The notes below the pieces were generated by a model, which was not told the origin of the DNA, ran no database searches, and was given only the letters and a program-made list of their open reading frames with translations. The translations under genes and the position numbers were made by a program. Below are positions 19,253 to 35,966 of a DNA stretch of 64,000 nucleotides, in pieces. The stretch lies in assembly GCA_001829185.1 (NCBI GenBank), contig MIAR01000032.1:306414-370413 (forward strand). Direction: 5' to 3'. Source of the DNA: Spirochaetes bacterium GWB1_60_80 (GTDB lineage Bacteria > Spirochaetota > Spirochaetia > Treponematales > UBA12059). The number at the start of each line of letters is the position of its first letter. Position 1 is the first letter of the stretch.

Positions 19253-19359
19253 TTCACCGCCTGAGTCGCTGCCTGAAACCGCGCCTGAGTCGTTGACTCA
19301 GGTGGCCCACTTTACAGGCAGGCCGTTTTTTGCTTTAATCAAGGCAGTTCGGTTGCCGG

Positions 19360-19545
19360 TCAAGGCTCTCCTGTGCGGAGCGGTCCTGGTCGACTTAGAG
19401 GGAAGCCGGTGCGAGTCCGGCGCATGCCAGCCGTTGCTGTAAGCGGGGACGAAGGTCGCATTATGCCACTGTCCGTTATGGATGGGAAGGCGCGGCCGGA
19501 GAATGATCCGCAAGCCAGAAGACCTGCCGGACTACAGAGTTTCTG
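19360..19545 (+). promoter_or_regulatory. cobalamin (AdoCbl) riboswitch in the cobT leader
   Basis: GGGAAGCCGGTGCGAGTCCGGCGC core, B12-box GCCACTG, GGGAAGGCG and GATCCGCAAGCCAGAAGACCTGCC, all matching conserved cobalamin-riboswitch segments, about 180 nt upstream of cobT. Confidence 0.8.
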
Positions 19546-19719
19546 TCACATACCTGCCGCTGGAAGCAGCCCGATCGTCCACAAGCGACTGATACGGGTG
19601 AACTGTCTTCGGGCGGCTTTTTCGTCGGTTGGACTTTTCTCCCTGTCTTTTGCCTGTCTGGGTTGTCCTGCCTGGCTGTTAGATGGCTCGGCGTGGAATT
19701 GCCCGAAAGGTTTCCTTCC

Positions 19720-20805
19720 ATGACTGATTCCCGAAACGCCACCCCGGCCACCGCTCAACTACCCCGGTTGCCGGCCATTCCGCCGCTTGATCCAGCGCTG
19801 CGCCAAGCCGCCCAGTCGCTCATCGACAACAAGACCAAGCCGCTGGGCGCGCTTGGTCGCCTGGAGGATTTGGCCGTGCGGCTGTGCGTCATGCAGGGCA
19901 GCCTCAAACCGGTTACGGCCGGTAAGCTGATGCTGGTGTTCGCCGGCGACCATGGCTTGGTAGAGGAAGGCGTCTCGGCCTTCCCGCAGGAAGTGACCGT
20001 CCAAATGCTGCACAATTTTTCCGCTGGCGGGGCGGCCATTAACGTGCTCTGCCGCCAGTTTAACATTGACTTGCAGGTGGTGGATGCCGGCGTCAAGGGT
20101 GACGTCTCCAGCCTGGCTGGCATTATCGGCCGCAAGGTCCGGGCCGGCACCCGGAACGCCGCCAAGGAAGCCGCCATGAGCGCCGACGAGTGCCGACAGG
20201 CGTTGGAAGCGGGCATGGCCGTTTTCAAGGAGTTAGCCGTCCGACAGCCGGTACAGCTGCTCGGGCTCGGCGAGATGGGCATTGGCAACACTTCGTCGGC
20301 CGCCCTGCTCATCGCCGGCCTGACCGGTTCCCCGCTGGATGGTCTGGTGGGTCGCGGTACCGGCCTGGACGACAGTCAGCTGGATCACAAGACCGCAGTA
20401 CTCCGCCGGGTGATGGACTTCCATCAGCTGGCCGGCCGCGACCCCTTCGACATCCTCTGCCGGGTAGGCGGCTTCGAGATTGCCGGGATGGCCGGAGCGG
20501 CTATCGCCGCTGCCGCCGCCCGGGTGCCAGTGGTGCTGGACGGCGTTATTTCCACCGCCGCTGGCCTGGTCGCGGCTGCCTTGTTGCCTGCGGTGCGTGA
20601 TTATATGATTATCGGCCACCGCTCGGTGGAAGGGGCGCAAGCCAGGGCCGCGGCCAGCCTGCGGATTGAGCCGCTCCTAGATCTGGGCATGAGGCTGGGC
20701 GAGGGCACCGGCGCGGCCCTGGCCATGAACCTGTTGGAGACGGCTGGTCGCATTGTCAACCAGATGGCTTCCTTCGCCGACGCTGGCGTCAGCGAAAGGC
20801 TTTGA
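19720..20805 (+). CDS. cobT: nicotinate-nucleotide--dimethylbenzimidazole phosphoribosyltransferase
   Basis: LGRLEDLAV, VFAGDHGLVEEGVSAFPQEVT and GEMGIGNTSSAA, the hallmark CobT blocks. Start taken at MTDSRN (19720). Confidence 0.85.
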   Translation: MTDSRNATPATAQLPRLPAIPPLDPALRQAAQSLIDNKTKPLGALGRLEDLAVRLCVMQGSLKPVTAGKLMLVFAGDHGLVEEGVSAFPQEVTVQMLHNFSAGGAAINVLCRQFNIDLQVVDAGVKGDVSSLAGIIGRKVRAGTRNAAKEAAMSADECRQALEAGMAVFKELAVRQPVQLLGLGEMGIGNTSSAALLIAGLTGSPLDGLVGRGTGLDDSQLDHKTAVLRRVMDFHQLAGRDPFDILCRVGGFEIAGMAGAAIAAAAARVPVVLDGVISTAAGLVAAALLPAVRDYMIIGHRSVEGAQARAAASLRIEPLLDLGMRLGEGTGAALAMNLLETAGRIVNQMASFADAGVSERL

Positions 20806-20960
20806 GCGATTCTTGGCCGGTTGTCCGCCGGCCAGGAATCGGGTTGGCGACCTTCGATCCTGCGCGGTCGTCGGCCAATTCCTCCGCCAATTCCTTATTG
20901 ACAACTCGGCTTTCCGGCCTGACAATAAAAGGTGCGCGCAAACGGTTCTGAGGGGGCAAC

Positions 20961-22589
20961 ATGGAAGTGAATTCCCAGTCCGGGCAATTGACCGGTAAAT
21001 TGCTGGAAGGTATCTCCCGTTTCAAGGAAATTTATCGCGATCTATCCGACCAACTGTGGGCCTTGTCGATGGAATCCGGCCTGACCGCCGATTTTTTTAG
21101 CGAGAACATCAAGTCCAATACCCAGAATGGCCTGGCCTTGCAGTCCATGACCCGCGAATTCAGCGCACTTAAAGCCAGCGCCGACAGCATTACCGGCGCG
21201 GCAGCCCAGGCCAACGCCCAAATCGCGACCGCGGAAACCGCCTCGCGGGCTTCGCTGGACGCCATTGCCGTCGGTGGTCAAGCCCTTCTGGCCATGGACC
21301 GCAGCTACAGCGAGTTCGCGGTACTGTTTCACCGCATTACCGAGGCCGTCGACAAGATTCAATTAACCCTGCGCGCCATCGACGAAATTTCCGAGCTTAC
21401 CAATCTGTTGTCCCTGAACGCCGCCATCGAAGCCGCCCGGGCTGGCATTCATGGCAAGGGCTTCAAGGTTGTGGCTAACGAGGTAAAAAGCCTGGCCGAG
21501 AAGAGCCGCGGCCTGACCGACCAGGCTACCCAGTTGCTGAAGGAGTTATCCGGCAGCATGGGCGGCACCACGGCCAGCCTCAAGGCTTTTGACGGTGGTA
21601 AGACAATATTGACGGCCAAGCTGGCCGCCGCCAAGCAGGATCAGCTGGAAAGCACCACGGCCATGACCGCCGTCGGCCAGAGTATGGGCAGCATCAGCGG
21701 CGCCCTACAGGACCAGGCCGGCAGCATCCAGCACCTGTCCGACACGATGTCGCAGTTGACCCGAGCCGTCAGCCTGCTGGTCAACTCCACCGAACTGATT
21801 ACCAGCAACTTGGACCGCCAGAAGAAAAGCTCGCAGGCCGTTCTGGCCAACGGTAGCCGGCTCAAGTCAGCCATTACGGAAATGCTGCTACTCGGCCGGG
21901 GGGTGCAGGGCGACGAGGCCGATCAGAAGGTTCTTTCCATTGGACACGATGTGTCGTATCCGCCGTGGGTCTATATCCAGGGCGGCCATTCGGCTGGTAT
22001 GACCATCGAGGCTGCCCGCTATGTTAGCCAACAGCTGGACTTGTTGCCGGAATTCAAGCCGGGCCAGTTCGCGGACGTCCTCGACGACTTGCTAGCCGGT
22101 AAGGTTCGCATGTTGGCCAATGTCGGCTGGCCGAACGCCTTTTTCGCCGACAAGCCAGTGGTGGCCAGTTCGCCGTTCGCGCACTTCAAGCCGGCCATTT
22201 TCGCCCATGCCCAGGATACCGATCGCTTCAAATCCTACGCCGACTTGGCAGGCAAGCGCGTCGCCGTGCAGCGAGCTTCCTATGTGGCCGATTGCCTGCA
22301 GAACGCCAGCTGCGAACGAGTCTACGCCGACAATGACCTGGAAGCCTTCGCCGCCCTGATCTGGCAGCGGGCTGATTGCGCCATCACCGAAGAAAAGGTT
22401 GGCGCTTACCTGTCTAAACAGTTTTTCTCCGGCAAAATTGTCCATTGCTTCTCGACCGGGCACACCTTAGACGTGGTATTCCTGTTCCTGAAGGCCAACC
22501 AAGAGCTGGCCAGAACCTTCGATACCTGCTTGCAGGCGGCCGATACCCGGGTCTGGCTGGAGCGTTTACTGGCCAAACCGGTCAACTGA
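20961..22589 (+). CDS. methyl-accepting chemotaxis protein (soluble) with C-terminal periplasmic-binding-protein-like (SBP_bac_3-like) domain
   Basis: Central MCP signalling domain ([33 protein letters not shown]). No TM segment. The C-terminal ~230 aa resemble amino-acid/solute-binding proteins. Confidence 0.75.
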
Positions 22590-23879: not shown

Positions 23880-24017
23880 GTTCCATATATTAGGTGAAAT
23901 GGTAGCATCTGTAAACCATCTTTGATGATGATACTAATAAATTACTTTCTCCGTGAAAATTTGTTGACAGATTACCGTTTTTAGATTCAAATGGTAGCAG
24001 TATCAAGGAGCTGCCAT

Positions 24018-25118
24018 ATGAACAAGCTGTTACACGGAATGGGCCTGCTATTAATCGCCCTACTCGCTTTGACTATCCTGCCCGCTCAAGAGGGCCGCCT
24101 GGCGCCGGATGTCGGACTTGATGGCATCGGCCTGTGGGATCTCGGACTCTACGGTGGCCTCAAAGGGCTCGAACTGGTGCCCGACGTCGATAGCCGCGCC
24201 TTGCTCTACCTGCGTGGTGGCTATGTGGAGGACTACTATTATCGCGACACGGCCGGCCTTATGGACCTGGCGGCCGACAATACCGATTTCAATAAATGGT
24301 ACCTGGTAGCTAGGCTGGGCCTCGAACTCGGTCTGGTGCACGATGCCATACTGGGCAAGAACAGTCTCTTTGGCCGGATTTTCGTACGCTCGTTGCTGGC
24401 TGAGCATATATTCGGCGACCTGGTCGATCCACTGCTACTCGACAGCGGCTTGCCCGACATGGCCAACGCTTGGGAAACCAGCTTGTTTGCCGGCTTATTC
24501 CTGGATCAAGTAGGATTCAATCCCTGGTTGCAGTCCAACCATGGCTACGCCCTGGAGGGGTCGGTGGAATGGACGCCCGGTCTGACCTTCAACCAGCTTA
24601 ACGGCGCCGTTGACTATCTGCGCGCTAATTTTACCGGCAAGCTCTATGTACCCCTTTTTGAGAACGATCAATTGGGGCTCTACCTGATGGACCGCGTTAT
24701 GGCGGACGGTCTTTTCGGCGCTGCCATCCCCGGCCTGGCCCGTCGCCGGATGGGTGGCTTTTGGCAAACGGCCGCTCCGGGCGGCGTGGTGCGCGGGACG
24801 GACAATGGCCGCTACGATACCTATCTCAAGCTGGTCAACAACCTCGAGCTGCGTTTCCATTTCCTGCCGCTCTTCGCCACCGCTGACCAGCCGGAGGCGC
24901 GCATTTTGGTACCCGAACTCTTCGCTTTCTGCGACGCGGCCGCCCTGGACGACCTGGATTATCAATTCGGTACGGTACTGGTCAGCGCTGGCGGCGGACT
25001 TATTCTTAATCTACGCTTTATCGGTATAAAATTTGATTTAGGCTACTACGTGGCCTATAATTTCCTGGAAGGAAGCTTCAGCGCCTTTAACCTGGTGCTA
25101 GGCGGGCATCACTTCTGA
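24018..25118 (+). CDS. secreted/outer-membrane protein (signal peptide, C-terminal Phe), function unknown
   Basis: Signal peptide MNKLLHGMGLLLIALLALTILPAQEG. Ends ...GGHHF with an aromatic C-terminus, as in beta-barrel OMPs. Divergent from the ROK regulator via an AT-rich intergenic region with repeated aaatggtagca motifs. Confidence 0.55.
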   Translation: MNKLLHGMGLLLIALLALTILPAQEGRLAPDVGLDGIGLWDLGLYGGLKGLELVPDVDSRALLYLRGGYVEDYYYRDTAGLMDLAADNTDFNKWYLVARLGLELGLVHDAILGKNSLFGRIFVRSLLAEHIFGDLVDPLLLDSGLPDMANAWETSLFAGLFLDQVGFNPWLQSNHGYALEGSVEWTPGLTFNQLNGAVDYLRANFTGKLYVPLFENDQLGLYLMDRVMADGLFGAAIPGLARRRMGGFWQTAAPGGVVRGTDNGRYDTYLKLVNNLELRFHFLPLFATADQPEARILVPELFAFCDAAALDDLDYQFGTVLVSAGGGLILNLRFIGIKFDLGYYVAYNFLEGSFSAFNLVLGGHHF

Positions 25119-25175
25119 CCTTGGTGTTGTTTGGCGTCGAGCTGGATCCAGCGAAGGCTTCCTCGGGGAGGCTCC

Positions 25176-26519
25176 ATGGGCAAGCAGCAGCGGCTCTGGC
25201 TGCGACAGGAATTACCCCGGCTGACGCAAGCCGGGGTAATTGATGAACTCAACGCCGCCCGGCTCGATGCTTGGTGCGCGGCCGACGACAAAGGCGAATA
25301 CTCCAACAAACTGCTGACTACCTTTGCCACCTTGGGCGCCGGGCTGATTGTGCTCGGCGTCTTGTTGTTGCTGGCCTTCAACTGGTCGGAACTGCCGCGG
25401 GCACTGCGCCTGTTATTGGCTCTAACGCCCCTGGCGACGATGCAGGCGCTGGGCGCTTACACCTTAATTCGCAAGCGTTTCTCGCCGGTATGGCGTGAGG
25501 CCGTATCAACTGGCCTAGTGCTGGCCATTGGCGCTGCCTTGGCCCTGGTCAGCCAGATCTACCAGTTGCCGGGTGATATCGACCGCTTCCTGTTGGTGTG
25601 GGCAGCGCTGGCTCTGCCGCTGCTTTATCTGTTCGAGGCGGTCGCAGGCTGTCTTTTGTACCTGACCGCCATCACCGTCTGGGCTATGATCCGGCAGCTG
25701 GAAGGCGGCCAAGCCGTGTTTTTCTGGATCATGTTCCTGTTGGTCCTGCCACGCCTGGTGTTGGCCGTCCGAAAAGCGCCAGCGGCCATGGGCAGCCTGG
25801 CCCTGCTCTGGATGTTCATTATCGACCTGGCCATCTGCCTGGGCTTGACCCTGGAAAAGGTCATGCCTGGCCTTTGGATGCTGGAATACGCCGCCTTCTT
25901 TGCCGCCTTGTATTTGGCTGGTAGTTTCTGGTTCGACCGTGGCTTGAGCGCGCCGCGCAACCCACTGCGGACTAGCGGCTTTCTAGGCACCTGGATACTG
26001 ACCTTTCTGCTGACCTACAGTTGGCCTTGGGAAGAAATAGGCTGGTACAATCTGCGTACCGATCCGAACTTCATTCCGTCTGCCGCCGTGGTCGACTACG
26101 TGGTGCTAGCCGTTATCGTCCTATCTTTTTTAGCCTTACTGGTGCTGGGCTTCCGACAAAAGCGCTTCCGGGCGTTGCCAACGGCCTTTTTGCCTCTCCT
26201 GCTGTGGCCGGCCTACTATCTGGTGGCAGGCCATCCTGGCAGAGATTTTTTCCAGGTGTTCGTCCATCTGGGACTGAACCTGGCCATTTTGGCCGTGGCG
26301 GTGTATTACATCCTGGATGGCTATGGCCGTCGCCAAATGGCTCAGATCAACGGCGGCATTCTGTTGCTGGTCACCCAGATAGCGCTGCGTTTCATTTTCG
26401 TGGAAGGCTTCTTCGAGCACTTGCTGGTACGCGGCTTCATTTTCATCGCTATCGGGGCGGCGTTCTTGGCTGGTAACGCGCTTTTGGTGTGGCGCTTCCG
26501 GAAGGAGCAGGCATCATGA
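25176..26519 (+). CDS. DUF2157-type integral membrane protein (likely fused DUF2157/DUF4401)
   Basis: Soluble N-terminus, then about 10 TM helices. Typical partner of the downstream GDYXXLXY protein. RBS ggggagg before the ATG at 25176. Confidence 0.6.
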   Translation: MGKQQRLWLRQELPRLTQAGVIDELNAARLDAWCAADDKGEYSNKLLTTFATLGAGLIVLGVLLLLAFNWSELPRALRLLLALTPLATMQALGAYTLIRKRFSPVWREAVSTGLVLAIGAALALVSQIYQLPGDIDRFLLVWAALALPLLYLFEAVAGCLLYLTAITVWAMIRQLEGGQAVFFWIMFLLVLPRLVLAVRKAPAAMGSLALLWMFIIDLAICLGLTLEKVMPGLWMLEYAAFFAALYLAGSFWFDRGLSAPRNPLRTSGFLGTWILTFLLTYSWPWEEIGWYNLRTDPNFIPSAAVVDYVVLAVIVLSFLALLVLGFRQKRFRALPTAFLPLLLWPAYYLVAGHPGRDFFQVFVHLGLNLAILAVAVYYILDGYGRRQMAQINGGILLLVTQIALRFIFVEGFFEHLLVRGFIFIAIGAAFLAGNALLVWRFRKEQAS

Positions 26520-27058
26520 ACCGTGACAAGCGAGCGCGGCTGGTAGTGCTGATTGTTTTCGGGTTGGTGGCAGCGGCCCAGCTGGCAGTGCCGCTGGCCT
26601 TGATCGGGCGCGAGGAGGCCAACCTGCGCGGTGGCGAGCTATGGCGTTTCCGGATAGTACCCTTCGATCCGTACGACGCCTTCCGCGGCCGCTATCTGCA
26701 GTTTCAAATGCTTGACATCGACCTTTTGGCCCTTCCAGCCGTCGAGTATGCCCCTTTCGAAGAAGGCGACGAGTTGTGCGGCCTCCTCGCTCTCGATGAC
26801 CGAGGCTTTGGATTCCTACGGGCAGTGTTGCCCTGGGAAGAGCGGTCGGAGGGTGAAGCCTGTCTGAAACTACAGTACCTGGGTGATGGCATGGTGCAGC
26901 CTCCCTTCGACCGCTACTATATCAACCAGGCTCGGGCCAAGGCTATAGACCAGGCATTTTCAAGTAGTTGGGACACGACTTGCTGGATAGAGGTCAGATT
27001 ATCTGATGGGCGTGGGACGATACAGAATTTTTGGATAAATGACGAACCGGTCGACTAG
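26516..27058 (+). CDS. GDYXXLXY-family protein
   Basis: N-terminal TM. RFRIVPFDPYDAFRGRYLQF resembles the signature region of GDYXXLXY proteins. ATGA overlap with the upstream gene. Confidence 0.55.
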   Translation: MNRDKRARLVVLIVFGLVAAAQLAVPLALIGREEANLRGGELWRFRIVPFDPYDAFRGRYLQFQMLDIDLLALPAVEYAPFEEGDELCGLLALDDRGFGFLRAVLPWEERSEGEACLKLQYLGDGMVQPPFDRYYINQARAKAIDQAFSSSWDTTCWIEVRLSDGRGTIQNFWINDEPVD

Positions 27059-33167: not shown

Positions 33168-35804
33168 CTACTGGCGGTTGGCGACCAAGGAGTATGTGCC
33201 GGCGCCGACTATCCGGCTACCGAGTTGATAGACCTTGATATAGTAAGTACCCGGATTGAGGTAGAGTTGAAGGTTGGAATCCAGGCCAAAGCCACCATCG
33301 TCGTCGCTGCCTACCAGGCTGGAGCGTGAATCGTACAATTCGAGGTAAGTGTCCAGGGCGGTGTCGCTTATGCCGCGCGCCGTAATGCTGTAGTTACCGG
33401 CCTGGGTGACGGCTAGGCGAACCCAGTCCTGGTCGTCGGCGCTGTGGAAAGTCCGCTGTTGGCCGGTGCTGCTGAGACTGATGGGTTTGGCCTCGCTCAT
33501 GGTGTTGTCCGCTTCGTAGTCGTCGGGCCGGGCCGGTTGCACGTATTGGATGCGGATGGTGTAATCGCCGGCGGCGCTGGCGTAATTGCGAACGCTAAAC
33601 AGGTACTGGCCGGCGGACAGGGTCTGTTGGACCAAGGCGTTCAGTTCCTCGCCGGAATCGTCGTCGTCGATAATTAACCCATAATTGGCGTCGTATAGCT
33701 CGATCATGGTATCGGTGGAGCCTTCCGTCGAAATGCTGACCGTCAAGCCAGCCTGGCTGAGCGTGATCCGATACCAGTCAAAATCGCCCGAGCTGTGGAA
33801 GCTGGCCGGATAGAGTCCGCCGTCGGCGGCTAAGGTCAGCGACGCGGCGCTTTCCCGCATATCGTTTGGTTCGTAGCCATCGCCGAGTTGACCGGTGGTA
33901 AACGCGACGCGCAAGGTGTATTCGGCGGTGCTGTTGTCGTAATTACGGATGGCGACCAGGTAGTCACCCGCCGTCAAGGTCAGCTGGATCATGGAATTGT
34001 AGCCATCGCCGGAATCATCGTCGTTGGCCAGGACGTTGCCCTGGCTGTCGCTCAGTTCCATGACCGTATCCGCGTCGCCCTCGGTGGATACCGCCAGATT
34101 GCGGCCGCCCTGCGGCACGGTGACGCGGTACCAGTCAATATCGTTGGTGGCGCTAAAATTGGCGCTGAAGGTGCTGCCGCCTTCGCTGCCGCTGAGCCTG
34201 GAGGCCTGCTCGCGGCTATTGTTTGGCTCGTAGGCATCGACCTGGGGCGCGGTAACGCTTTCAAAGTTCAGGCTGTAGTCGCCGGCCGTGCCGTCATAGG
34301 TTCGGACATGGAGAACGTAATCGCCGGCCGTCAAGGTTTGCAGGATGCGGGCGTTGTAGTCGGACCCGGAATCATCGTCGCCGGACAGCTGGCCATTGTT
34401 GCTGTCGAACAGCTCCAGGACCGTGTCCATCGTGCTCACGGTGTAGATGCCAAAAGTCAGGTTGCCCTGCGGCACGGTGAAGCGGTACCAGTCGCTGTCG
34501 CCACCGATGTGGAAATTGGCGCTGAAGGTACTGCCGGCCATAATGATGCCGAGGCGGTGGGCGGCCTGGAAGCTGTCGTTCGGTTCAAAGCTGTCCGGAG
34601 TGGCCGGCTCGATGAACTGGAGGTTGAGGACGTAATCGGCCAGAGTGCTGTAGTAGCTGCGCACCATAACCAAGTAGTCGCCAGGATTCAGGAGCTGTTC
34701 AATCAGGGCGTTGCCGCCGCTACCGGAGTCGTCATCCTCGTCGATGGCGTTGCCGGAGGCGTCGTAGAGCGCCATGACGGTGTCGCTGTCCCCTTCGGTG
34801 AACAGGCGCAGCGGGCGATTGCTCTGCGGTACGGTGATGCGGTACCAATCGATATCGCTGGTAGTATGGAAGTTAGCTTGGACGACATTGCCCTCTGCCG
34901 AGAGGCTGATGCGCCGGGCCATGCTTTGGGTGTCATTGGGCTCCAGGGCGTCGCCGTCGGGGGCCTGCACAAATTCAAAATCCAGGGCGTAGCTGCCGGT
35001 GGAACCGGAGAAATTGGATACTTTAACCAGGTAGGTGCCTGGCGCTAACGCCAACTGGATGAGCGAATTGAGGTTGCCGTTGGAGTCATCGTCACTGGCC
35101 AGAATTGTGCTATTGGCGTCGGCCAGCTGGAGGATGGTGTCCGAGCTGCCGGTAGTGGCGATCCGTAGTGTCTGGTTGCCCTGTGGCATGACGATGCGAT
35201 ACCAGTCTTCGTCGCCTTCAACATGGAAGCTGGCGTTGATGGACAGACCATTGGCGGTCAGATTGAGAACCCGGGCGGTCTGATAGCTGTCATTGGCTTC
35301 ATATTGGTCGCGGACGACGCTACCGCTGCTCGACGTGGCGCTAGTCAGCAAGGCGCCGACGAACTGGTTGTTGCCAAGGTCGATCTGGCGGCTGAACAGG
35401 GCGGTATTATCGGTGGCTCGGATCAGTCGGGTGTAGATACGGATGGTCGTGCCTATGTTCATCATGTCGCCCTGAATGATGAACTCGTGGTTGCCCGGTT
35501 CGTCGAGGATGCGGAAGCGTTGGCTGTTTTGGGTTATCAGGAAGTTTTTGAGGTTGATGCCCCACAGTTTACCGAGGTTGACGATATCCCCATCCAGGGT
35601 GAAGTTGCCGATGGCCACCAGTATGACGTCCGAGTCGGAGCGGGCGGTGGTCAGCGCCGTTCCCAATTGCCCGGCCAAGTCCTGGCTGGCCTGGTCGAAG
35701 CTTTCCGGGGTTGGATCTAGCAGACTGGTCTGGGCGGCCAAGGGCAGGCTCAAACCGACCAGAACGGCCACGAGGACTAGGGTATGGAATATAGGGTTAC
35801 GCAT
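33168..35804 (-). CDS. secreted protein with ~8 tandem pre-peptidase C-terminal (PPC) domains
   Basis: Signal peptide MRNPIFHTLVLVAVLVGLSLPLAAQ. Eight ~95-aa repeats of the form EPNDs...A..l...FhssgD.DWYRitv.q....v.t.gdsDTvlELyD..g..i..DDDSG...NsliqqtL.aGdYl..Vr.y....gdY.L. A rho-independent terminator lies at about 33095-33130. Confidence 0.8.
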   Translation of the reverse strand: MRNPIFHTLVLVAVLVGLSLPLAAQTSLLDPTPESFDQASQDLAGQLGTALTTARSDSDVILVAIGNFTLDGDIVNLGKLWGINLKNFLITQNSQRFRILDEPGNHEFIIQGDMMNIGTTIRIYTRLIRATDNTALFSRQIDLGNNQFVGALLTSATSSSGSVVRDQYEANDSYQTARVLNLTANGLSINASFHVEGDEDWYRIVMPQGNQTLRIATTGSSDTILQLADANSTILASDDDSNGNLNSLIQLALAPGTYLVKVSNFSGSTGSYALDFEFVQAPDGDALEPNDTQSMARRISLSAEGNVVQANFHTTSDIDWYRITVPQSNRPLRLFTEGDSDTVMALYDASGNAIDEDDDSGSGGNALIEQLLNPGDYLVMVRSYYSTLADYVLNLQFIEPATPDSFEPNDSFQAAHRLGIIMAGSTFSANFHIGGDSDWYRFTVPQGNLTFGIYTVSTMDTVLELFDSNNGQLSGDDDSGSDYNARILQTLTAGDYVLHVRTYDGTAGDYSLNFESVTAPQVDAYEPNNSREQASRLSGSEGGSTFSANFSATNDIDWYRVTVPQGGRNLAVSTEGDADTVMELSDSQGNVLANDDDSGDGYNSMIQLTLTAGDYLVAIRNYDNSTAEYTLRVAFTTGQLGDGYEPNDMRESAASLTLAADGGLYPASFHSSGDFDWYRITLSQAGLTVSISTEGSTDTMIELYDANYGLIIDDDDSGEELNALVQQTLSAGQYLFSVRNYASAAGDYTIRIQYVQPARPDDYEADNTMSEAKPISLSSTGQQRTFHSADDQDWVRLAVTQAGNYSITARGISDTALDTYLELYDSRSSLVGSDDDGGFGLDSNLQLYLNPGTYYIKVYQLGSRIVGAGTYSLVANRQ

Positions 35805-35966
35805 CGAGGACTCCTTTTTATCAAAAGCCACAAACCTAAGCTTGCAACAAGCCCCGGCTGGCGGTGTTACAGACCAGCCGCCATGGGTCAGCCTAAGTAT
35901 ACTGTAATCGAAAAAAAAAACCAGATTGAGGTAAGACAGATTTGCGCCGCTACCCGGCGCTCGGTC

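What the first reader, a model, noticed from the sequence alone, without database searches (positions are those of the whole stretch)
20961..22589. Soluble chemoreceptor with inverted architecture: MCP signalling domain followed by a C-terminal solute-binding-protein-like domain
No TM helices or signal peptide. The N-terminal ~300 aa form the methyl-accepting coiled-coil ([33 protein letters not shown]). The last ~230 aa look like an SBP_bac_3/PBPb ligand-binding domain. Sensor domains of MCPs are normally N-terminal and periplasmic. A cytoplasmic C-terminal PBP-type sensor is rare and implies sensing of an intracellular metabolite, possibly linked to the upstream B12/cobT context.
Basis: partly seen in the sequence, partly recalled or inferred. 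Interest (0 to 1): 0.55.

Follow-up and report, generated by a model that had tools for sequence, protein, structure and literature searches.

The report
Soluble spirochaete chemoreceptor with C-terminal flytrap sensor
This gene from an uncultured spirochaete encodes a membrane-free chemotaxis receptor whose sensor, a "Venus-flytrap" solute-binding domain with an unusual pocket, sits at the tail instead of the head; it belongs to a conserved but unstudied family, and is an interesting variant rather than a new kind of system.

Summary
ORF 20961-22589 (+) encodes a 542-aa protein with no TM segment or signal peptide. It has an MCP signalling hairpin (residues 3-315), a short linker and a complete SBP_bac_3 / type-II PBP fold (324-538). 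The fusion is not a frameshift: at least 83 clusters carry the same ~540-aa architecture, and nearly all named sources are Spirochaetota MAGs. The window's enolase is identical to that of Spirochaetes bacterium GWD1_61_31.

C-terminal sensors on cytoplasmic receptors are a recognised topology (H. pylori TlpD). The cobT/B12 link looks like local synteny: cobT lies nearby in 2 of 9 homologue contexts, has its own cobalamin riboswitch, and the receptor gene has its own promoter-like site.

New points:
- The SBP pocket has lost the amino-acid carboxylate clamp (invariant P391, variable A396) but keeps the aromatic pair and two acidic residues.
- Its signature (GHD..YPPW, NVGWPN) is in 40 of 42 MCP-fused representatives and 0 of 77 multi-flytrap proteins.
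- The hairpin tip is canonical, but consensus methylation sites are absent.
- The tip-to-sensor distance is length-locked.

The ligand is unknown; an amine-type metabolite is a weak guess. Verdict: new variant of a known kind, moderate interest.

The parts
20898..20926 (+). Sigma-70-like promoter match (TTGACA-17-GACAAT) about 35 nt upstream of the start codon
   Evidence: 10 of 12 consensus positions. This is a consensus match only, and the transcription start was not determined.
20950..20956 (+). Shine-Dalgarno-like GAGGGGG
   Evidence: sequence; it lies 5-11 nt upstream of the ATG at 20961.
20961..22589 (+). Complete ORF (542 aa plus stop): soluble MCP with a C-terminal SBP_bac_3 domain
20967..21905 (+). 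MCP signalling hairpin, residues 3-315 (about 22 heptads per arm, 44H-like length)
   Evidence: continuous helix 3-315. (aligns 14-299 to residues 14-292 of T. maritima TM1143, PDB 2ch7). (profile match, E 8e-36).
21357..21518 (+). Kinase-control hairpin tip, residues 133-186; the most conserved part of the signalling half
   Evidence: I140, I143, T147, L149, L150, A154, A155, A158-G162, G165, G167, F168, V170, V171, E174, L178 and T186 are invariant in 80 sequences; E157 is E in 79 of 80 (1 Q).
21906..21929 (+). Linker, residues 316-323: variable in sequence, constrained in length
   Evidence: pLDDT below 50 at 316-319. (no conserved columns). (tip-to-GHD distance is 163-164 aa in 59 of 80 members).
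21930..22574 (+). C-terminal Venus-flytrap / type-II PBP domain (SBP_bac_3), residues 324-538, with a non-canonical pocket signature
   Evidence: Invariant residues include H329, D330, Y333, P334, P335, W336, N387, W390, P391, Q437, S440, N458, D459, W468 and T476. The carboxylate clamp is lost (P391 and A396 in place of Thr and Arg).

Best explanation
The gene encodes a cytoplasmic chemoreceptor of an uncultured spirochaete.

Shown:
- Each chain folds into one long antiparallel coiled-coil hairpin of the length of the 44-heptad receptors of Thermotoga.
- The kinase-control tip is canonical.
- A complete two-lobed Venus-flytrap (SBP_bac_3) domain hangs from the end of the C-terminal helix by a short linker of fixed length.
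- The flytrap belongs to a distinct subclade found almost only in this fusion.
- Its pocket has lost the Thr/Arg clamp that holds the alpha-carboxylate of amino acids, but keeps the aromatic pair and two acidic residues.

Inferred:
- The protein dimerises and joins CheA/CheW arrays through its tip.
- The flytrap closes on a small cytoplasmic molecule that is not a standard amino acid. A cationic or amine-type metabolite is the best weak guess.
- Closure displaces or re-packs the C-terminal helix of the four-helix bundle. The change travels about 150 residues down to the tip and alters kinase activity. This is the same logic as the C-terminal CZB domain of TlpD.
- Adaptation is probably not by canonical methylation, because consensus sites are missing.
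- The gene is a stand-alone receptor gene, not part of a B12 or che operon.
For: Architecture and location.

Fusion conserved: P0001-P0083, and about 40 representatives at the 50% identity level with the SBP at about 300-545 of 500-565 aa.

Soluble family-wide: median max KD19 is 1.08.

Tip residues: those equivalent to Tsr N381, R388, F396, V398 and E402 (N153, R160, F168, V170, E174) are invariant or >=90% conserved; E157 (Tsr E385) is E in 79 of 80.

44H-like length: near end-to-end alignment with TM1143.

Length-locked coupling: the tip-to-GHD distance is 163-164 aa in 59 of 80 members, although the linker sequence varies.

Pocket: in the alignment to AncQR (4zv1), Thr aligns to the invariant P391 and Arg to the variable A396. 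W336 and F370 occupy the aromatic-sandwich positions, and D330 and E477 the acidic positions.

Signature specificity: 40 of 42 MCP-fused representatives versus 0 of 77 giant multi-VFT proteins.

Amine hint: the same SBP type is fused to a PigE/putrescine-aminotransferase-like Aminotran_3 enzyme on two independent contigs, with speE/speD-like genes about 7 kb away.

Methylation: there is no adjacent E/Q pair in residues 1-320 of the window protein. 58 of 84 family members lack the strict motif, against a mean of 2.3 motifs in 37 control MCPs.

Precedent for C-terminal sensor coupling: TlpD structure preprint.
Against: - No ligand, dimer, array membership or kinase control was tested, so every mechanistic step beyond the fold is inference.
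- No che gene is near the receptor gene in the window or in any of nine homologue contexts. The partner pathway is therefore unknown.
- The tip Glu equivalent to Tsr E391 is I, V or A in most members; the effect of this is unknown.
- Pocket residues were assigned from sequence alignment, not from model coordinates.
- pTM of 0.56 means the relative orientation of the two domains is not reliable.
- The amine guess rests on one divergent fusion protein (32% identity) and on residue chemistry. Several homologues instead sit next to TCA or anaplerotic genes, which would suggest carboxylate ligands.
- Non-consensus methylation sites are known in Thermotoga receptors, so the absence of the motif does not prove the absence of methylation.
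Confidence: 0.6

Rival explanations
1. The C-terminal domain is a conventional amino-acid sensor (Gln/Arg/His/Glu type), reporting the cytoplasmic amino-acid pool.
For: The best sequence and fold matches are amino-acid-binding proteins and their reconstructed ancestors: AncQR, AncCDT-1, GlnBP, ArgBP and the cystine receptor. NCBIfam gives a sub-threshold hit to the Lys/Arg/Orn SBP subfamily. The aromatic sandwich and an acidic residue at the GlnBP D157 position are retained.
Against: The Thr/Ser and Arg that clamp the alpha-carboxylate align to the invariant P391 and the non-conserved A396. A 4-residue deletion follows S440, where canonical binders place the second carboxylate-binding turn. 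The family signature is absent from all 77 other close SBP_bac_3 relatives examined. Ancestral sequences score well partly because they resemble a consensus.
Confidence: 0.12
2. The receptor is functionally tied to the adjacent cobT/B12 lower-ligand pathway. It might sense nicotinate (the CobT by-product, and a known modulator of the BvgS flytrap), DMB or a corrinoid.
For: cobT lies directly upstream on the same strand with no terminator-like site between the two genes. The adjacency persists in the two closest homologues. From established knowledge, BvgS VFT2 responds to nicotinate.
Against: cobT is absent from seven of nine homologue contexts. In L089 two genes, one on the opposite strand, separate it from the receptor gene. 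The shared neighbourhood in the close relatives extends to EamA, ROK and NMT1_3, so it reflects general synteny. cobT has its own cobalamin riboswitch and the receptor gene its own promoter-like site. The pocket offers no conserved basic residue for a carboxylate.
Confidence: 0.05
3. The flytrap-like domain is not a small-molecule sensor. It could be a protein-interaction, localisation or oligomerisation module (for example, organising a cytoplasmic array), or a catalytic descendant like cyclohexadienyl dehydratase.
For: TlpD's C-terminus is needed for polar localisation (PMC13001251). Cytoplasmic arrays stack head-to-head through the receptor ends that here carry the SBP domain (PMC3964821, cited). 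CDT-lineage proteins are among the best matches.
Against: The most strongly conserved residues map to positions that line the ligand cleft in homologues: D330, W336, F370, the G389-N392 loop, Q437, S440, T476 and E477. An exported stand-alone form and an enzyme fusion carry the same signature, which fits a portable ligand-binding module.
Confidence: 0.12
4. It is a chemoreceptor-like protein that feeds a non-motility output (an alternative chemosensory pathway or a direct regulatory role) rather than flagellar chemotaxis.
For: No che genes are nearby in any context. Consensus methylation sites are missing and the tip Glu varies. GGDEF or histidine-kinase genes are neighbours in some homologues. 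Precedents exist: FrzCD, and the E. coli Tls regulator (PMC12623472).
Against: The trimer-contact and kinase-control residues of the tip are invariant. Orphan receptor genes are the norm for flagellar chemotaxis receptors. Spirochaetes are motile and chemotactic (established knowledge).
Confidence: 0.15
5. The two-domain protein is an assembly or frameshift artefact that fuses two genes.
For: None found. One homologue cluster contains a split copy (P0130, 367 aa, and P0132, 71 aa, share the longest-contig length 127,971 listed), which shows that disruptions do occur.
Against: The same uninterrupted architecture occurs in at least 83 clusters from NCBI, JGI, ENA and Logan assemblies. The exact window protein is listed in 33 blocks of the contig collection, and 24 contigs carrying it were read. 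The junction length is conserved.
Confidence: 0.01

Closest known systems
Helicobacter pylori TlpD (cytoplasmic chemoreceptor with a C-terminal CZB sensor domain)
   Same: It is a soluble MCP whose sensor domain follows the signalling hairpin, so input enters through the C-terminal helix. It lacks canonical methylation sites.
   Different: TlpD's sensor is a zinc-binding four-helix bundle that straddles the coiled coil. Its hairpin is about half as long and it has an N-terminal PAS-like domain. Here the sensor is a bilobed PBP fold on a 44H-length hairpin that starts at residue ~3, with no N-terminal domain.
Venus-flytrap (PBPb / SBP_bac_3) sensor domains of signalling proteins: BvgS, Geobacter HK29s (PDB 3h7m), V. 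cholerae CdgH
   Same: The same fold is used as a built-in sensor rather than a transporter partner. HK29s is among the top sequence and fold matches, with a related DYPPY / ISWS motif. The next-nearest relatives of the domain are giant proteins with tandem SBP_bac_3 domains; of the two sampled, P0193 is a BvgS-like multi-VFT hybrid kinase and P0204 shows no output domain.
   Different: Those domains are periplasmic, N-terminal and coupled through a membrane to kinases or cyclases. This one is cytoplasmic, C-terminal and coupled to an MCP hairpin. Its pocket signature is absent from all 77 multi-VFT proteins checked.
Thermotoga maritima receptors TM1143 (2ch7) and soluble TM14 (3g67)
   Same: They are the best structural and sequence templates for the signalling half. 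The hairpin has 44H-like length and the tip is similar, including Lys in the GKGF motif as in TM14.
   Different: TM1143 is transmembrane with an N-terminal sensor, and TM14 has no sensor domain at all. Neither carries a C-terminal PBP domain.
Periplasmic amino-acid-binding proteins (GlnBP, HisJ/LAO, ArgBP, AncQR)
   Same: They share the fold, lobe order, hinge, aromatic-sandwich positions and an acidic residue at the alpha-ammonium position.
   Different: This domain has no signal peptide. The carboxylate clamp Thr/Arg is replaced by Pro/Ala, there is a 4-residue deletion after S440, and invariant H329, W390 and N392 are added. No transporter genes are associated with it.
Indirect SBP-mediated chemotaxis (MBP-Tar, and the SBP-receptor pairs reviewed in PMC8050422)
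   Same: An SBP-fold protein supplies ligand specificity to a chemoreceptor.
   Different: In those systems a free periplasmic SBP docks onto the periplasmic domain of a transmembrane receptor. Here the SBP fold is covalently fused, cytoplasmic, and attached at the opposite end of the signalling domain.

Membership tests
Methyl-accepting chemotaxis protein signalling domain (Pfam PF00015) | Significant match to the MCPsignal profile | tested here: met
   90.2 bits against a cutoff of 34.6, residues 124-268; the family profile matches TM1143 with E 8e-36.
Methyl-accepting chemotaxis protein signalling domain (Pfam PF00015) | Conserved hairpin tip with trimer-contact and kinase-control residues (Tsr N381, E385, R388, F396, V398, E402 equivalents) | tested here: met
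   R160, F168, V170 and E174 are invariant, E157 is E in 79 of 80, and N153 is >=90% conserved. Exception: the Tsr E391-equivalent position 163 is I (28), E (24), V (18) or A (8) among 80 sequences.
Methyl-accepting chemotaxis protein signalling domain (Pfam PF00015) | Consensus methylation sites ([ASTG][ASTG]xx[EQ][EQ]xx[ASTG][ASTG]) in the methylation helices | tested here: not met
   the window protein has no adjacent E/Q pair in residues 1-320. 58 of 84 family members have no strict motif, whereas 37 control MCPs average 2.3. Non-consensus sites cannot be excluded.
Methyl-accepting chemotaxis protein signalling domain (Pfam PF00015) | Assembly with CheA/CheW and control of kinase activity | not testable with these tools
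   No che genes are in the window or in the homologue loci examined. Biochemistry or whole-genome data would be needed.
44H heptad class of MCPs (Alexander and Zhulin classification) | About 22 heptads per arm, with a class-specific indel pattern | tested here: inconclusive
   residues 14-299 align to 14-292 of the TM1143 construct with small gaps; the N-arm is about 159-162 aa, and the tip-to-GHD distance is about 163-164 aa including the linker. Class-specific HMMs were not available.
Cytoplasmic (soluble) chemoreceptors with a C-terminal ligand-binding domain | No transmembrane segment and no signal peptide | tested here: met
   max KD19 is 1.21 and the N-terminus is polar; the family median is 1.08, with a single borderline member at 1.68.
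Cytoplasmic (soluble) chemoreceptors with a C-terminal ligand-binding domain | A sensor-type domain located after the signalling hairpin | tested here: met
   SBP_bac_3 at residues 324-538 follows the hairpin at 3-315.
SBP_bac_3 / type-II periplasmic binding protein fold (Pfam PF00497) | Profile match and a bilobed alpha/beta fold with two hinge crossovers | tested here: met
   33.5 bits against a cutoff of 26.4. Foldseek E 3e-16 and target-normalised TM 0.78-0.86 over about 220 columns.
SBP_bac_3 / type-II periplasmic binding protein fold (Pfam PF00497) | Export to the periplasm and association with an ABC transporter | tested here: not met
   There is no signal peptide, and no adjacent ABC permease or ATPase genes in the window or in the homologue loci examined.
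Polar-amino-acid-binding SBPs (GlnBP / HisJ / LAO type) | Alpha-carboxylate clamp: Ser/Thr and Arg in the G-x-[ST]-x-[ST]-x-x-R loop | tested here: not met
   the alignment to AncQR places the invariant P391 and the variable A396 at these positions; conservation.
Polar-amino-acid-binding SBPs (GlnBP / HisJ / LAO type) | An acidic residue for the alpha-ammonium group (GlnBP D157) and the aromatic sandwich (F13, F50) | tested here: met
   E477, W336 and F370 occupy these positions. W336 is invariant, and F370 and E477 are >=90% conserved.
BvgS-type multi-VFT sensor kinases | Tandem periplasmic VFT domains N-terminal to a TM segment and a histidine kinase | tested here: not met
   there is a single cytoplasmic VFT and no kinase domains; the pocket signature is not shared with these proteins.

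The most novel reading that the evidence does not exclude
This family could be a methylation-independent, cytoplasmic 'metabolic state' chemoreceptor. A dedicated flytrap subclade would read an intracellular amine or polyamine (or another non-amino-acid metabolite) and drive the kinase-control tip through the C-terminal helix alone. That would make it the first example of Venus-flytrap-to-MCP coupling from the C-terminal end, and a tractable soluble model for long-range receptor allostery.
Probability: 0.3. Interest if true: 0.55.

Novelty: new variant of a known kind. Interest (0 to 1): 0.4.

Why it matters
Soluble chemoreceptors are common, but few have a known signal, and only TlpD shows how a C-terminal sensor talks to the signalling hairpin. 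This family offers a second, structurally different case. It has a bilobed flytrap on a full-length 44H-type hairpin with a fixed-length linker, and it is entirely soluble, so it suits structural and in vitro kinase work. Its pocket signature defines an SBP_bac_3 subclade of unknown specificity that also occurs as an exported protein and as an aminotransferase fusion. Identifying the ligand would therefore annotate several protein types at once, and would show what internal cue free-living spirochaetes steer by. It does not reveal a new kind of system.

Tried and rejected
1. The GTDB genome scan with the family alignment was swamped by the generic tip peptide AAIEAARAG.

2. The word-indexed search with the SBP domain alone returned only three fragments of the same family. 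The exhaustive HMMER search replaced it.

3. AFDB Foldseek was unavailable.

4. The Collins et al. 2014 review (PMC4248653) is not held. Its content is cited only through papers that refer to it.

5. The literature searches for MCPsignal plus SBP_bac_3, PBPb or Venus flytrap with chemoreceptors, and C-terminal sensor domains, and reading within three of the retrieved papers, turned up no description of this fusion.

6. Frameshift artefact: rejected.

7. Periplasmic location: rejected, because there is no signal peptide or TM segment family-wide.

8. che-operon membership: not found in ten loci.

9. A functional cobT link: judged unlikely.

10. The recurrence of TCA and anaplerotic genes near homologues was noticed but not tested statistically.

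Full report

Yes. The window holds an ATG-initiated ORF at 20961..22589 (+) of 542 aa, preceded by GAGGGGG at 20950-20956. Pfam places MCPsignal at residues 124-268 (90.2 bits, cutoff 34.6) and SBP_bac_3 at 325-536 (33.5 bits, cutoff 26.4). NCBIfam gives only partial, sub-threshold hits, to MCP equivalogs and to the Lys/Arg/Orn SBP subfamily.

The best 19-residue hydropathy window scores 1.21 and the N-terminus is polar and acidic, so there is no TM helix or signal peptide. An AlphaFold2 model built on 80 family sequences (mean pLDDT 83.5, pTM 0.56) shows a continuous helical hairpin at 3-315, a low-confidence linker at 316-319 and an alpha/beta domain at 324-538. Foldseek matches that domain to closed, liganded Gln/Arg-binding proteins, reconstructed ancestral SBPs and the Geobacter HK29s sensor domain (E about 1e-16, target-normalised TM 0.78-0.86).

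**2. Is the fusion genuine?**

Yes. A search of 5.8 billion proteins returned 83 clusters (P0001-P0083) at 30-59% identity. The full-length ones are 501-568 aa, and nearly all carry both Pfam domains. The exact window protein is listed in 33 blocks of the contig collection, and 24 contigs carrying it were read. Named sources are Spirochaetes, Spirochaetota, Spirochaetia, Spirochaetales, Spirochaetaceae or Spirochaeta sp. MAGs, with one 'Clostridia bacterium' bin that is probably mis-binned.

The window's enolase is 100% identical to that of 'Spirochaetes bacterium GWD1_61_31', so the window comes from an uncultured spirochaete. Across the family no member has a convincing TM segment (median maximum 1.08, one borderline 1.68).

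**3. The signalling half**

The family profile matches the cytoplasmic domain of T. maritima TM1143 (2ch7) with E 8e-36. The single sequence aligns at 14-299 to 14-292 of that construct with only small gaps. The hairpin therefore has about 22 heptads per arm, the length of 44H receptors. Class HMMs were not available, so formal class membership is left open.

Conservation peaks at the tip (residues 133-186). Most positions there are invariant in 80 sequences, including R160, F168, V170 and E174; E157 is E in 79 of 80.

Two features are unusual:
- The position equivalent to Tsr E391 is I, E, V or A, rather than a fixed Glu.
- Consensus methylation motifs are largely missing. The window protein has no adjacent E/Q pair anywhere in residues 1-320. 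58 of 84 family members lack the strict motif, whereas 37 unrelated MCPs from the same search average 2.3 motifs.

This resembles TlpD and TM14, which also lack canonical sites. It does not exclude non-consensus methylation.

**4. The sensor half**

An exhaustive HMMER search of 1.84 billion representatives with residues 318-542 found 1102 hits (E <= 1e-3), 41 of them with E <= 1e-30. The top ~60 are almost all 500-565 aa proteins with the match at about residues 300-545, which is the same fusion. The next tier is giant 1000-3000 aa proteins with 2-7 tandem SBP stretches. One sampled giant (P0193) has four SBP_bac_3 domains plus HisKA, HATPase and a receiver domain, making it a BvgS-like multi-flytrap kinase; the other sampled giant, P0204, has four SBP_bac_3 stretches and no output domain in the Pfam scan. 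The domain is therefore closest to built-in sensor flytraps, not to transporter partners.

Residue-level alignment to AncQR (4zv1) shows two things:
- **Clamp lost.** The Thr and Arg of the G-M-T-I-T-E-E-R loop, which clamp the alpha-carboxylate in amino-acid binders (established for GlnBP T70/R75 and LAO S72/R77), correspond to the invariant P391 and the non-conserved A396. A 4-residue deletion follows S440.
- **Other pocket positions kept.** W336 and F370 sit at the aromatic-sandwich positions, and D330 and E477 at the two acidic positions.

The resulting signature (HD..[YF].PW plus [NS].GW[PS][NSD]) occurs in 40 of 42 MCP-fused representatives and in none of 77 giant multi-flytrap proteins.

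Rare non-MCP carriers exist:
- An exported stand-alone protein with a clear signal peptide (P0182), and a probable second one (P0247).
- A fusion to a class-III aminotransferase (P0190). This enzyme is closest to the PigE and putrescine aminotransferase models, below their cutoffs. The fusion is found on two independent contigs, with speE/speD-like genes about 7 kb away.

An acidic, aromatic, clamp-less pocket together with this fusion weakly suggests an amine-type ligand. This is inference only.

**5. Coupling**

The linker is not conserved in sequence. Yet the distance from the tip to the GHD motif is 163-164 residues in 59 of 80 members. That is what one expects if the flytrap must sit in a fixed register at the end of the C-terminal helix.

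By analogy with the TlpD structures, where changes in the C-terminal CZB propagate along the coiled coil to the tip, the most likely mechanism is as follows. Lobe closure on ligand binding repositions or re-packs the C-terminal helix, and this alters kinase control at the tip. Dimerisation, array membership and kinase control are all inferred.

**6. Genomic context and the B12 idea**

cobT (19663-20805; DBI_PRT, 432 bits) lies directly upstream, and a ROK regulator is convergent downstream. A cobalamin riboswitch (RF00174, 109.7 bits) sits at 19333-19545, ahead of cobT. The receptor gene has its own TTGACA-17-GACAAT match at 20898-20926. No terminator-like site separates it from cobT, so read-through cannot be excluded.

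Across nine homologue contexts:
- cobT is adjacent only in P0001, and two genes away in P0002 with an opposite-strand gene between them. Both loci share wider synteny with the window (EamA, ROK, a 375-aa unknown gene, NMT1_3).
- cobT is absent in P0003, P0010, P0024, P0038, P0058, P0072 and P0081.

The link is best read as inherited gene order. No che gene lies near any copy, and none was found among the window ORFs scanned. Several homologues neighbour Iso_dh, PEPCK, PEPcase or aconitase/citrate-synthase genes. This was noticed but not tested.

**7. Comparison with what is known**

Cytoplasmic receptors with C-terminal sensor domains are established. [quoted passage not shown] An archaeal survey reports C-terminal LBDs and SBP_bac LBDs in MCPs. 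Flytrap sensors in kinases and cyclases are also established.

No paper describing an MCP with a C-terminal SBP_bac_3 domain was found. Public pipelines label these proteins 'methyl-accepting chemotaxis protein' or 'transporter substrate-binding domain-containing protein'.

**8. Verdict**

This is a conserved, uncharacterised, Spirochaetota-restricted variant of two known themes (a C-terminal-sensor soluble MCP and a built-in flytrap sensor). It has a distinctive non-amino-acid pocket and probably methylation-independent behaviour. I rate interest at 0.4 and novelty as a new variant of a known kind.

Noticed in passing
window 19333-19545 (+), with 19603-19616: A cobalamin riboswitch (RF00174, 109.7 bits, full length) lies upstream of cobT. 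It is followed by a terminator-like hairpin that may be its expression platform, so cobT looks B12-regulated on its own.
   Followed up: partly
L095 8001-10082 and L096 5068-7149 (protein P0190): A 693-aa fusion joins a class-III aminotransferase (closest to the PigE and putrescine aminotransferase models, below cutoff) to the same SBP subclade. It occurs on two independent contigs, with spermidine-synthase-like and AdoMet-decarboxylase-like genes about 7 kb away in L095.
   Followed up: partly
L094 1537-2271 (protein P0182); also P0247: These are rare stand-alone versions of the same SBP subclade with a hydrophobic signal-peptide-like N-terminus, so the pocket type also exists outside the cytoplasm. 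The contig is too short to show neighbours.
   Followed up: partly
L092 670-1752; L093 5901-7865 and 9900-11582; L091 2607-5156; L001 16200-20488; L090 12274-13629: Homologues of the receptor gene repeatedly sit near central-carbon genes: Iso_dh, PEPCK, a pyruvate carboxylase/oxaloacetate decarboxylase-type gene, PEP carboxylase, and aconitase/citrate synthase. This could be chance and was not tested statistically.
   Followed up: no
proteins P0188, P0194, P0197, P0206 and others: Very large proteins (up to 2993 aa) carry up to seven tandem SBP_bac_3 stretches. One sampled case (P0193) is a four-flytrap hybrid histidine kinase, and another (P0204, 1125 aa) has four SBP domains and no detected output domain.
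   Followed up: partly
window 23991-25118 (+): A 375-aa ORF has only a sub-threshold Omp85 hit (E 0.029). A gene of the same size with no Pfam hit sits beside the ROK regulator in L087, L088 and L089. It is a conserved neighbour of unknown function, possibly an outer-membrane beta-barrel.
   Followed up: no
window 25131-27058 (+): A DUF2157 membrane protein (462 aa) overlaps the start of a GDYXXLXY protein (189 aa). The pair looks like an operon of unknown function.
   Followed up: no
window 33168-35831 (-) and 50153-54656 (-): An 887-aa protein carries six PPC (pre-peptidase C-terminal) repeats. Elsewhere, a subtilase (S8) gene sits next to a 767-aa protein with cadherin-like domains. These are probably secreted or surface proteins.
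   Followed up: no
cluster of P0010: P0130 and P0132: A 367-aa and a 71-aa product in the same cluster share the same longest-contig length (127,971). They look like a split (frameshifted or interrupted) copy of the receptor gene in one assembly.
   Followed up: no
P0134 and P0308: A receptor homologue and an enolase 89% identical to the window's are both labelled 'Clostridia bacterium' MAG, among otherwise Spirochaetota hits. This is probably a mis-binned or mislabelled assembly.
   Followed up: no
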